64,000 nt of DNA, taken from Trueperaceae bacterium (GTDB lineage Bacteria; Deinococcota; Deinococci; Deinococcales; Trueperaceae). Below are positions 44,801-47,800 of the stretch, piece after piece (within the stretch, counting starts at the first letter, position 1; every line of letters begins with the position of its first letter). Location: positions 96,001 to 160,000 of the forward strand of contig JAXHNB010000005.1 of the NCBI GenBank assembly GCA_034520945.1. The letters are read 5' to 3'. The position numbers are program-made.

Positions 44801-47800
44801 GCTGAAGGAGCGGCTCAAGAGCGACTTCCCCGAGCTGGCCAAACACGCCAGCGAACGCGAACGCGTCGCCGAGCAGGCCGAACGCGACCTGGCGCGGTAC
44901 TACCACGCGCGCTGGGCCAAGGAACACCTGGGCGAGGTGTTCACGGGCACCGTCAGCGGCGTGACCAACTTCGGCGTGTTCGTCACGCTCCCCAACGGCA
45001 TCGAGGGCCTGATGCACGTGTCGCACCTGGAGGACGACTACTACGTGTTCCTCGAGGAGTCGTTGATGCTGATGGGCAAGTCGACGCGAACCCGCTATCG
45101 GATGGGCGACCGGCTGGAGGTGCGGTTGTACCAGGCGAATCCCACCGCACGACAGATCGATCTGATCCCCGGAAACGCCGACATGCCCGAGGTGGTGCCC
45201 GAGGAGACCCCGAAGCGCAGCAAGCCGCCCAAGAAGCTCAAGACGCCCCTTGGCGGCGCCAAGGACGCCCCGCCGTTGTCCGTGGATGCGGGCAAGGCGC
45301 GAGCCGGGGGCAAGAAGAAGGCGGCGGCCAAGGGTGGCCGGGCGGAGGCCGGCGAGGCCGCGGCGGAGGCCGGTCCGGCCAAGGCGGCCGCCAAGTCCGG
45401 CTCGAAGTCCGGCGCCAAGGGGAAGGCCGCGGCCAAGGCGAAGCCCGAGGCGAAGGAGGCCGCGGACGCCAAGCCCAAGGCCGAGGCGAAGCCGAAGCGC
45501 GGCGCCAAGAAGGACGAGGCCGAGGCGAAGCCCGCGTCCGAAGCCAAGCCCAAGCGCGGACGCAAAGCCAAGGCCGACCCGAAGGCCACGGCCGAGGCCG
45601 CGCCCGCCAAGGCCCCGCCGGCCGCGGACGCCACGCAGAACGACGCCGCCCCTGACGAGAAGGGACATCGTCGCCGGCGCCGGTTGGTGTTCGGAGACAA
45701 GGGCCCCAGGAGGTAGCCGATGACCGAGCCCGTGTCCGACGTTCTTCCAGAGGTACGCGTGTCGCTCACGAGGGTGTGCCTGCGCAAAGGCGAGGTCGCC
45801 ATCCCGTTCCGCGCCCGCAGCGCGTTCGAAGAGGTGCGGACCTTCCGTGCCTACGACGTAGAGGAGGACGAGGAGCACGAGCTCGAGGTTCAGTCGAACG
45901 GCCGGCTGGCCGGCCTGAAGCCGTTCATGGAACAGCGCGGGCTGGCGGTGAACGACGTGGTGGTCGTGCGGCCACAGCGGGACGGCTCGTTCGTGCTGAC
46001 GGCCGCCGCGCGCCCGCGGTCGTCCCGGCGTGACGCCCGCGCCGTCCGGCGCGCGGTCGCCTCGCTGCTGGAGGGGGGGCCACCGCGAAGCCTGGAGGAG
46101 CTGCGCGAGGACTTCGCCCTGGCCGACGATGCGCCCCTGCGGGCGGCGCTCGAGCGGGAACCGACGCTGCAGCGGCGCGCCGGCCGCTGGGGCCTGGCCG
46201 ACCCCCCCGGGCACGCGGAGGGCGGCGCCCGCCGCGAGCGGGTCACCGCGACCTCGCGTCCCGGCCCTGATCCCCGCCGCGCGTCGCTGAACAGCGTGCG
46301 TGACGGCGAGGTGTCGTCCCCCGAGGTGCTGGCGCGGGCCCGCGAAGCGTTCGACGCCCTCGGGTACGAGGTGTCCGCCGCCGGCGAGGGCACCTTGGCG
46401 CTGGGCGCGCCGATGGGCCGCAGCCGGCAGTTGGCGCTGGTGCGGGTGCTTCGCGAGGGGGAACGCCCCGACTGGGGGGACCTGATCCGCGCCGGCCGCG
46501 AGCGCGGCGCCGATGCGCTGGCGGTGCTCGGGGACGTGCGTGATCTCCATCCGCTGGAGCGGCCGGCCCGGGGGGCGCAGGCGACGCTGTGGTCGTGGGA
46601 GGGGCTCGAGCGGGCCTACGCCCTGAGCCAGACCGTCCCGATCGGCCCCGTGGACCTGGCGCCCTCCTTCGAGGAGGACGGCCTGCACGGCCAGGGACTG
46701 GAGCGCTTCGAGGCCCGCATCGAGGACCGCGTACGCGCGCGCGGCCTGTTCTCGTCGGTGGTGGCGCGCCTGGCGGAACTGCGGGCGCCGACCTCGTTCA
46801 CGCTCGGCGACCTGGAGGATGCCCCCTCCGCCTCCCGCGACGAGTTGCTCGCGGTGGTGGACCGGCTGACCGCCCCGCCGTTCCAGTGGGTCGAGCGGGT
46901 GGGCCCCGGTGAGTTCGCGTTGCGTCAGAGCGTCACGGACGGGCTGGCGCACCTGTCGCGGTACGCCGCCAGCCTCGCGCGGGATCTGCCCGACGCCACC
47001 CGCCCGCGCGTGCGGGGTCTGGACGCCACGCAGGACGACGCGGAGGCAGTGGATCTGCTGGGGCGCGACGACCTCGTCGCGGCGGGCGCAGCCGACGACG
47101 AACGGCCCGACGAGCACGGCTGACGCCGGGCAGGTCGCGCGGCGGCCTCAGAAAAGGTCCTGCAGCGCAGCGACATCGAGGGGACTGCTGCGCGAGGCCC
47201 GCAACGCCCGGACCGTCCACTCGGCCGCCGCGCGCGTGGTGACGTAGGGGAGACCCTCCTCCAGGGCGCGCCGCGCTTCGGGGGTGGGCTCGACGTCGAT
47301 CAGCAACGCGTAGTCGGGATCGTCGCCGTGCGTCTGCGGACCCTGGACCGCGTCGTAGCCGAGATCGTTCAAAGCCGCGGCGACGTCGTCGAGGCCGTCG
47401 CCGATCACACGCACCCGTCCCTCGGCAGGGAGCGCCTGCCCGGCCCCCAACTGCGCCTTGTAGTACGCGAGGTCGGGATCGGCGTCCAGGCCCATGCTCT
47501 CGCCGGTCGAGCGCATCTCGGGACCCAAGGTGGGCAGCCGACCGGCGAACTTCAGGAACGGAAGCACGACCTCCTTGACGGCGTACATCGGGGGGGTGGG
47601 GGTGTGCGTGAACCCGAGCTGCTCCAGGGTGCGCCCCGCCGCGATCAGGGCGGCGTACTTCGCCAAAGGATGCCCGATGGCCTTGGAGAGGTAGGGAATG
47701 GTCCGGCTGGCGCGCGGGTTGGCTTCGATCACCCACAACTCGTCGCCGCGCACCACGAACTGCAGGTTGATCAGCCCACGCACCCCGATGGCGTCGCTCA

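What a model noticed while it worked through the whole genome (the two positions that open the first line are those of the whole stretch)
45720..47123. Plant-type B3 DNA-binding domain in a core, unannotated Deinococcales protein (B3-wH-dead restriction fold-wH) and two p [...]
The unannotated 467-aa gene after rnr has an N-terminal B3 pseudobarrel, then a helical domain, a restriction-endonuclease-like fold and a winged helix. It is a core single-locus gene of Deinococcales with no methylase or nuclease beside it. Two more B3-domain paralogs lie at C2:238933 (end of the uvrB-polA-uvrC repair cluster) and C2:401889.
Evidence so far: AF2 pLDDT 82. Residues 9-99 match plant FUS3 B3 at Z 12.7, rmsd 1.8 over 91 residues, above LlaJI (10.5) and BfiI-C (7.9); residues 199-304 match AF1548 (Z 9.1) and 342-402 the DpnI winged helix (Z 8.8). 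Profile matches in 140 of 150 Deinococcales, all five families. Paralogs E 1.5e-9 and 7.6e-18. No Pfam or NCBIfam hit; searches 96 and 97 list only restriction-enzyme and plant B3 domains.
(Added by a program. Inside this text positions count along the whole contig: contig position 96,001 is position 1 of the stretch shown here. "Call 12" and the like, gene names such as g00115 and contig names such as C1 are that model's own, and its searches are not shown. The text may have been shortened before it was handed on; [...] marks where a part breaks off. The agent that wrote the report below was given it as the finding of a first reader that could run no searches.)

Follow-up and report, generated by a model that had tools for sequence, protein, structure and literature searches.

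The report
Universal Deinococcota B3 DNA-binding protein
Almost every member of the Deinococcus-Thermus phylum keeps an unnamed protein that joins a B3 barrel (the DNA-reading fold of plant transcription factors) to a disarmed restriction-nuclease fold and winged helices, most likely a restriction enzyme turned into a housekeeping DNA binder.

Summary
Confirmed and extended. The 467-aa ORF models well (pLDDT 87) as four domains: a B3 barrel (FUS3, Z 12.9), a winged helix (own family only), a FokI/Mrr-type nuclease fold whose catalytic columns hold no D/E or K in 99 sequences, and a second winged helix. A B3 profile finds it in 295 of 299 Deinococcota genomes, once per genome outside the own family. 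It was not found in the plasmid, phage or viral collections searched. The orthologues are TT_C0207/TTHA0575, DR2286 and Deide_01960; the last is made as protein, and transcripts fall rather than rise after irradiation or DdrO depletion.

Corrections: 'no nuclease beside it' fails, because an intact DEDDh exonuclease gene lies directly upstream in 42 of 42 loci from three families. The paralogues are B3-linker-winged helix proteins. 'Plant-type' has moderate support only: LlaJI (10.6) ties with RAV1.

Best reading: a domesticated, nuclease-dead restriction module acting as a constitutive chromosome-binding scaffold (0.45); DNA binding is untested. The scan earlier noted similar B3/winged-helix core proteins in other phyla (unchecked notes). 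No description turned up in my paper searches.

The parts
43056..45716 (+). rnr, RNase R with a long Lys/Ala-rich tail; upstream neighbour, 3 bp gap
   Evidence: Pfam RNB, CSD2, OB_RNB, S1; start at 43056; upstream of the orthologue in 9 of 12 f1 loci and 4 of 10
45720..47123 (+). The gene: 467-aa B3 - wH - linker - dead nuclease fold - wH protein; orthologue of TT_C0207/TTHA0575, DR2286 and Deide_01960
45744..46016 (+). B3 / DNA-binding pseudobarrel, residues 9-99; T17, C20, G24 and N78 invariant
   Evidence: VIA Z 12.9 to FUS3, rmsd 1.8 over 91; Foldseek top hits TEM1, VAL1, VRN1; Pfam B3 sub-threshold in 8 of 40
46020..46199 (+). Small winged helix, residues 101-160, family f1 only; HARE-HTH-like by eye, membership not shown
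   Evidence: DSSP order H-H-H-E-E; the top rows for homologue P0044 are mostly winged-helix proteins, Z 5.9-7.0; HHalign 5% to true HARE-HTH and 43% to the DEDDh N-terminal domain
46200..46316 (+). Disordered linker of variable length; carries a conserved R-V-x-V-[TS]-P-[YH] motif in most orthologues (degenerate in this protein)
   Evidence: pLDDT below 50; [TS]P[YH] in 163 of 263 linkers against 8% of shuffles
46317..46733 (+). Inactive PD-(D/E)xK restriction-nuclease fold, residues 200-338
   Evidence: FokI Z 10.9, N.BspD6I 10.3, HindIII 10.2, AF1548 9.2; the columns aligned to the Mrr D, Q and K have 0% D/E and 0% K in 99 sequences
46737..46994 (+). C-terminal winged helix, residues 340-425, homologous to the C-terminus of the two paralogues
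   Evidence: Rv1846c Z 8.5, ST1889 8.2, DpnI 7.2; HHalign 94%, E 1.5e-7 to paralogue C-termini
47148..50225 (-). carB, convergent downstream neighbour in most f1 loci; no link assumed
   Evidence: translation read by eye; synteny

Best explanation
A restriction-enzyme-like module (B3 reader, FokI/Mrr-type cleavage domain, winged helix) was fixed in the ancestor of Deinococcota, lost its catalytic residues and became a constitutive housekeeping DNA-binding protein. It grips double-stranded DNA through B3 and the winged helix, probably with low sequence specificity. The dead nuclease fold and the conserved linker motif serve as scaffold or docking surfaces. It works on the chromosome during growth as an architectural or adaptor factor, and in three families it is co-expressed with a winged-helix DEDDh exonuclease.

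Shown: folds (predicted), loss of catalytic residues, universal single-copy inheritance, gene neighbours, expression (published tables).
Inferred: DNA binding, low specificity, scaffold role, derivation from a restriction enzyme.
For: Fold matches. No acidic residue or lysine at the catalytic columns in 99 sequences. Present in 295 of 299 genomes, with one match each in 195 of 197 genomes of f2-f5. The B3 tree needs only the minimum 5 label changes, with the paralogues as one clade. No match in plasmids, only E 5-7 noise in phages, none in viral contigs, and one PADLOC hit at E 0.022 among 51 members. K/R is conserved at B3 profile columns 4 (91%), 9 (90%), 21 (59%), 53 (69%) and 89 (96%), while the arm positions 13-18 and 49-52 vary between families. 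Deide_01960 is proteome-detected with three start sites; its sense reads fall from 5529 to 1684 after irradiation while ssb rises from 2536 to 17290. DR2286 has no DdrO peak or RDRM and falls 3.6-fold at 24 h of DdrO depletion. Atlas clusters with Mrr_cat and FokI cleavage domains align over residues 99-425 (TM 0.41-0.43).
Against: No binding data exist. The B3 domains are near neutral (median net charge 0), and here the nuclease fold is -7 and the terminal wH -3. HHalign to Mrr_cat is only 46% (E 2e-4), so the catalytic mapping is approximate. pTM is 0.56, so the relative domain arrangement is unknown. Neighbours differ by family, and one ancestral operon could explain the DEDDh coupling. Tn-seq calls TT_C0207 'Intermediate' in a library that cannot separate essential genes. 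The expression drop in D. deserti rests on single libraries.
Confidence: 0.45

Rival explanations
1. A sequence-specific transcription regulator or RNA-polymerase-associated factor: B3 reads a site as in plants, and the winged helices act like the delta subunit N-terminus.
For: The best structural matches are sequence-specific plant factors. The f1 paralogues are B3 + long disordered linker + wH, a transcription-factor-like build. Domain 2 is a small wH, and a chain of an S. aureus RNA polymerase complex (8x6g_E, Z 6.1, subunit not named in the output) is among many tied hits.
Against: The putative base-reading arm residues are not conserved between families. The strand-to-strand turn at residues 58-61 is only 4 residues, whereas the VAL1 C-arm contacts span W349-M356 (PMC5934628). 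HARE-HTH membership is not shown.
Confidence: 0.25
2. A dedicated targeting subunit of a DNA-maintenance nuclease: it recruits the winged-helix DEDDh exonuclease (TT_C0206/TTHA0574) or other repair enzymes to DNA.
For: The DEDDh gene lies directly upstream on the same strand in 42 of 42 f3-f5 loci (gap -22 to +17 bp in 41), and its five catalytic residues are invariant in 39 sequences. mutY lies directly downstream in 8 of 30 f2 loci and in D. radiodurans and D. deserti. A different DEDDh gene precedes paralogue 1 in 8 of 8 loci of the own genus.
Against: The wH-DEDDh form was not found in the f2 genomes searched (listed matches start near profile position 70) or the f1 genomes (best E 1e-14 to 1e-19), yet the B3 protein is kept there. 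The paralogue link is one genus, and 0 of 8 paralogue loci in other genera show it. The gene is not damage-induced.
Confidence: 0.15
3. An RNA-side factor, partner of RNase R or of the DEDDh enzyme acting on RNA.
For: rnr lies 3 bp upstream here and upstream in 9 of 12 f1 loci. DEDDh enzymes of Pfam RNase_T include RNases (established knowledge).
Against: The top structural neighbours of the B3 and nuclease domains are DNA-binding proteins. The rnr link is limited to f1.
Confidence: 0.1
4. An active solitary restriction or defence nuclease.
For: The parts list (B3, wH, nuclease fold) is that of defence systems; the Menshen paper lists B3, wH and inactive REase domains as sensors (PMC12065111).
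Against: Catalytic residues are absent. It is universal, single-copy and vertically inherited, whereas Mrr_cat genes occur in 18 of 61 genomes. No convincing PADLOC hit, and housekeeping neighbours.
Confidence: 0.05

Closest known systems
Plant B3 transcription-factor domains (PF02362; FUS3 6j9b, VAL1 6j9a, LEC2, TEM1, ARF1)
   Same: Pseudobarrel fold, Z 11-12.9 and rmsd about 2 A over about 91 residues; weak Pfam B3 similarity in 8 of 40 domains, best E 1.2e-4
   Different: Bacterial; 12-20% identity; below the Pfam cut-off; short and variable recognition arms; invariant T-x-x-C and N-D motifs; fused to a dead nuclease fold and a wH
B3-like domains of restriction and defence proteins (LlaJI.R1-N 6c5d, NgoAVII, BfiI-C, UbaLAI; Menshen PS-B3)
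   Same: Same fold (Z 10.6, 8.1, 8.1, 7.2); B3 joined to a nuclease-type domain
   Different: Those belong to defence systems with an active nuclease or motor. This is a single-copy core gene with no catalytic motif and no methylase.
FokI cleavage domain / N.BspD6I / Mrr_cat (PD-(D/E)xK nucleases)
   Same: Fold of residues 197-338 (Z 10.9 with the domains displaced, rmsd 15; N.BspD6I Z 10.3, rmsd 3.2 over 136); colinear HHalign match to Mrr_cat
   Different: The D and (D/E/Q)xK positions are replaced by hydrophobic or variable residues across the family
HARE-HTH (PF05066) / RNA polymerase delta N-terminal winged helix
   Same: Domain 2 is a small wH. Atlas clusters of Atribacterota carry a B3-like match (TM 0.82) and HARE-HTH in 94-96% of members.
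   Different: No PF05066 match in the own genome; HHalign probability 5%; present only in family f1

Membership tests
B3 / DNA-binding pseudobarrel superfamily | Pseudobarrel fold capped by helices | tested here: met
   AF2 pLDDT above 90 over residues 11-90; Z 12.9, rmsd 1.8 to FUS3
B3 / DNA-binding pseudobarrel superfamily | Basic N-arm/C-arm cleft that binds the DNA major groove | tested here: inconclusive
B3 / DNA-binding pseudobarrel superfamily | DNA binding shown by experiment | not testable with these tools
   needs EMSA or ChIP
Plant B3 family (Pfam PF02362) | Score above the gathering threshold (30.1 bits) | tested here: not met
   The scores printed are 13.9-17.2 bits; 8 of 40 domains match, best E 1.2e-4; no match in the own genome
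PD-(D/E)xK restriction nucleases (FokI/Mrr type) | Restriction-endonuclease-like fold | tested here: met
   Z 9-11 to FokI, N.BspD6I, HindIII and AF1548
PD-(D/E)xK restriction nucleases (FokI/Mrr type) | Catalytic D and (D/E/Q)xK | tested here: not met
   Columns 227, 242 and 244: 0% D/E, 0% D/E and 0% K in 99 sequences; neighbouring columns at most 4%; mapping by HHalign at 46%
Restriction-modification / defence systems | Cognate methylase or defence-island context; patchy, mobile distribution | tested here: not met
   Housekeeping neighbours; 295 of 299 genomes; no plasmid or viral match; one PADLOC hit, E 0.022, in 1 of 51 members
HARE-HTH (PF05066), for domain 2 | Winged-helix topology | tested here: met
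HARE-HTH (PF05066), for domain 2 | Profile similarity to the family | tested here: inconclusive
   No Pfam hit; HHalign 5% against an 18-row alignment of PF05066 matches

The most novel reading that the evidence does not exclude
This protein is the Deinococcota member of an ancient, undescribed class of housekeeping bacterial chromosome or transcription factors built from B3 barrels and delta-like winged helices. Core versions are suggested in Atribacterota (Atlas) and, by unchecked scan notes, in Anaerolineae, Armatimonadota and spore-forming anaerobes. This class, not type II restriction enzymes, would be the closest bacterial kin of plant B3 domains.
Probability: 0.15. Interest if true: 0.85.

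Novelty: new variant of a known kind. Interest (0 to 1): 0.6.

Why it matters
Two heavily studied model bacteria carry an unannotated, near-universal single-copy gene of their phylum (TTHA0575, DR2286) whose folds now predict a DNA-binding role that can be tested at once. The origin of plant B3 domains is usually tied to restriction enzymes (PMC3973309, Discussion). A vertically inherited, nuclease-dead bacterial B3 that superposes better on FUS3, VAL1 and ARF1 than on the restriction-enzyme B3 structures gives a new comparison point. It would also be a clear case of a restriction module domesticated for housekeeping.

Tried and rejected

No RNA holder was listed for the window; this is no evidence on expression.

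PDB sequence searches with A1 and A2 gave only E above 0.2. BFVD had no match at E up to 0.001. The best PHROG hit was E 0.0022 (unnamed, 4 of 40).

P0180 and P0184 in the representative search are repeat artefacts with no domain match on re-scoring.

P0339, labelled Pleurocapsa, is 75% identical to an f5 orthologue on a 4-kb contig. I take it as mis-binned, not as a cyanobacterial B3.

The UniRef name 'DUF4388 domain-containing' on some orthologues did not appear in the Pfam scan of 51 members.

The idea that domain 2 is the relic of the DEDDh N-terminal wH is not shown: HHalign 32-43%, the same as that domain's match to true HARE-HTH.

I could not fetch the Atribacterota or other non-Deinococcota B3 proteins. 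Of 291 representatives at E up to 0.001, only the best 150 were listed, so the tail is unseen.

The second fold job (P0044, no alignment) was poor overall (pLDDT 49); only domain 2 was usable.

The promoter scan found no promoter-like site.

Paper searches found no description of this family: B3 + Deinococcus; B3 + restriction + origin (36); HARE-HTH (53); TTHA0575/TTC0207 (55); DR2286 (62); B3-like/pseudobarrel, 40 of 287 listed (79); B3 + bacteria + AlphaFold, 25 of 30 listed (109); signature proteins (125). Subscription papers and bioRxiv supplements were not searchable, so nucleoid-proteome or signature-protein lists may name these genes.

Full report
Observation. The ORF 45720-47123 (+) encodes 467 aa. 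It starts 3 bp after the RNase R gene (43056-45716) and faces carB. Its GC by codon position (0.82/0.53/0.92) resembles its neighbours. Pfam and NCBIfam give no family for it. An AF2 model from 51 sequences has mean pLDDT 87.1 and pTM 0.56: four confident domains, a disordered linker and a tail.

Domain 1 (residues 9-99) is a B3 pseudobarrel. Foldseek's top PDB hits are TEM1, VAL1 and VRN1. VIA-align gives FUS3 Z 12.9 (rmsd 1.8 over 91), VAL1 12.2, LEC2 and TEM1 12.0, ARF1 11.9, LlaJI.R1 10.6, RAV1 10.4, VRN1 9.5, BfiI-C 8.1 and UbaLAI 7.2; NgoAVII gives 8.1. Eight of 40 family domains match Pfam B3 weakly (best E 1.2e-4) and five match MazE/AbrB; no restriction-enzyme B3 family appears. 'Plant-type' is therefore fair as a ranking, but LlaJI ties with or beats three plant domains, and compact arms alone could produce the ranking. 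In 336 aligned domains K/R is conserved at columns 4, 9, 21, 53 and 89 and the arm positions differ between families; the median net charge of the 40 domains in A2 is 0. In VAL1 the arms make all base contacts, with the C-arm spanning W349-M356 (PMC5934628, passages); here the matching turn appears to be four residues (correspondence by eye). I infer weak or no sequence specificity.

Domain 2 (residues 101-160) is a winged helix. The fold search on homologue P0044 returned mostly winged-helix proteins at Z 5.9-7.0, all close to tied. It occurs only in the window's own family f1: 10 of 10 f1 loci against 0 of 42 f3-f5 loci, and it is a gap in the f2 rows. It resembles HARE-HTH by eye (family description recalled, original paper not read), but profile tests are inconclusive.

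Domain 3 (residues 200-338) has the restriction-nuclease fold: N.BspD6I Z 10.3 (rmsd 3.2 over 136), HindIII 10.2, AF1548 9.2, and FokI 10.9 spanning domains 2 and 3. HHalign against 23 Mrr_cat matches from this phylum aligns 97 columns colinearly (46%, E 2e-4). The catalytic D, Q and K fall on columns with 0% D/E, 0% D/E and 0% K among 99 sequences, and neighbouring columns do not rescue this. Loss of catalysis is read from sequence only.

Domain 4 (residues 340-425) is a second winged helix (Rv1846c Z 8.5, DpnI 7.2). The linker holds [TS]P[YH] in 163 of 263 orthologues against 8% of shuffles, usually as RVxVTPY or VVVxxTPHVREV.

Distribution. The B3 profile matches 295 of 299 genomes of the phylum, and 262 of 263 good-quality ones. 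Every matching genome of f2-f5 has one match (195 of 197 genomes); f1 has one to three (one genome, G293, is unpublished and counts only in this tally). The profile was built from some of these genomes. Among 1.84 billion representatives, 291 score E up to 0.001. In the re-scored set of 151 proteins (the 150 listed plus P0041), 83 carry B3 plus the nuclease fold, 66 carry B3 without it (paralogues or fragments) and 2 are repeat artefacts; the weaker 141 were not shown. The B3 tree groups by family with the minimum number of changes and puts 25 paralogue rows on one branch (SH-aLRT 95), on only 91 columns. Plasmids and viral contigs gave no match, and phages only noise. Family names are inferred from named hits (f2 Deinococcus; f4 Thermus/Meiothermus). 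Outside the phylum, the Atlas shows Atribacterota clusters with a B3-like domain (TM 0.82) and HARE-HTH, a 102-aa stand-alone B3-like cluster, and Mrr/FokI clusters aligning over residues 99-425. These are leads that I could not fetch.

Paralogues. C2:238933 (360 aa) and C2:~401890-403490 are B3 + disordered linker + a C-terminal wH homologous to domain 4 (HHalign 94%). The first follows polA, SRAP, uvrC, an MrfA-like helicase, an RNase_H_2 exonuclease and a DEDDh exonuclease. uvrB was not confirmed.

Neighbours. A DEDDh exonuclease with an N-terminal extension lies directly upstream on the same strand in 42 of 42 loci of f3, f4 and f5, with invariant catalytic residues. That form was not found in the f1 or f2 genomes searched. 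mutY follows the gene in 8 of 30 f2 loci. rnr precedes it in 9 of 12 f1 loci and 4 of 10. A different DEDDh gene precedes paralogue 1 in 8 of 8 loci of the own genus, but in 0 of 8 paralogue loci elsewhere and 0 of 2 paralogue-2 loci. Kin share synteny, so these are a few events, not many. No methylase appeared among the conserved neighbours.

Model-organism orthologues were assigned by synteny, length and published best hits, not by direct alignment. TTC0207 lies between the DnaQ-like TTC0206 and a pyruvyl transferase, and is the reciprocal best hit of DR2286, which lies upstream of mutY (PMC1274311, passages and supplement rows). TT_C0207 is TTHA0575, persistent at one copy per isolate in 173 Thermaceae and 'Intermediate' in a Tn-seq that cannot call essentiality (PMC13140390, abstract, section 5.3, supplement rows). 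TTHA0574 is called a probable epsilon subunit (PMC2665239, one passage). Deide_01960 (479 aa, upstream of mutY, same length as D. deserti hit P0291) is proteome-detected and has three start sites; its sense reads fall from 5529 to 1684 after irradiation at similar library size (PMC4007540, supplement rows, one file not searchable). DR2286 has no DdrO peak or RDRM and falls 3.6-fold late in DdrO depletion (PMC8533742, supplement rows). The gene behaves as growth-linked, not damage-induced.

Mechanism. The best reading (0.45) is a domesticated, nuclease-dead restriction module that acts as a constitutive chromosome-binding scaffold or adaptor. The rivals are a specific regulator or RNA polymerase factor (0.25), an exonuclease-targeting subunit (0.15), an RNA-side factor (0.10) and an active defence nuclease (0.05). 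It is built like a B3-reading restriction enzyme but is not one. It belongs to the pseudobarrel superfamily by fold but not to Pfam B3 by score.

Novelty. Bacterial B3 domains are known from restriction enzymes (PMC3973309, parts 1 and 3 of 5 read) and from Menshen sensors, which also include inactive REase folds (PMC12065111, one section). A B3/PUA-like domain is reported in rhizobial effectors (PMC13667924, passages). None of my searches found a housekeeping B3 protein or this family. Earlier scan notes describe core B3/winged-helix proteins in four other lineages and a solitary B3-FokI/Mrr-wH nuclease. I did not check them; they suggest this is one case of a wider class and gave me the novel case. 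Verdict: real, apparently undescribed, a new variant of a known kind, interest 0.6.

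Noticed in passing
L039-L050, L134-L163: A DEDDh exonuclease with an N-terminal winged-helix-like extension ending in an invariant DGRF motif is conserved in families f3-f5; this form was not found in the f1 and f2 genomes searched.
   Followed up: partly
window 43056-45716; L188-L203: RNase R carries a long Lys/Ala/Pro-rich tail ending in a conserved basic RRRLVFG-like motif across family f1.
   Followed up: no
L051:55-10816 (G000:C2:228-239 kb): Same-strand repair cluster: polA, SRAP, uvrC, an MrfA-like helicase with an HNH domain just before its zinc-binding domain, an RNase_H_2 (MrfB-like) exonuclease and a DEDDh exonuclease.
   Followed up: partly
L079, L083-L085, L087, L089-L096, L098-L107: HARE-HTH matches in short open frames (mostly 80-190 aa) in 37 of 57 family f4 genomes, apparently small stand-alone proteins.
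   Followed up: no
P0339: A protein labelled Pleurocapsa sp. (cyanobacterial MAG) is 75% identical to an f5 orthologue; probably a mis-binned contig.
   Followed up: yes
G000 and other f1 genomes: Family f1 has only weak matches to the Thermus-type DnaQ profile (best E 1e-14 to 1e-19 in 10 of 12; none in 2), so it may lack a standard epsilon subunit.
   Followed up: no
window 38411-42377 (-): ABC transporter cluster: two permease genes, a putative lipoprotein-sorting protein and an ATPase, read by eye from translations.
   Followed up: no
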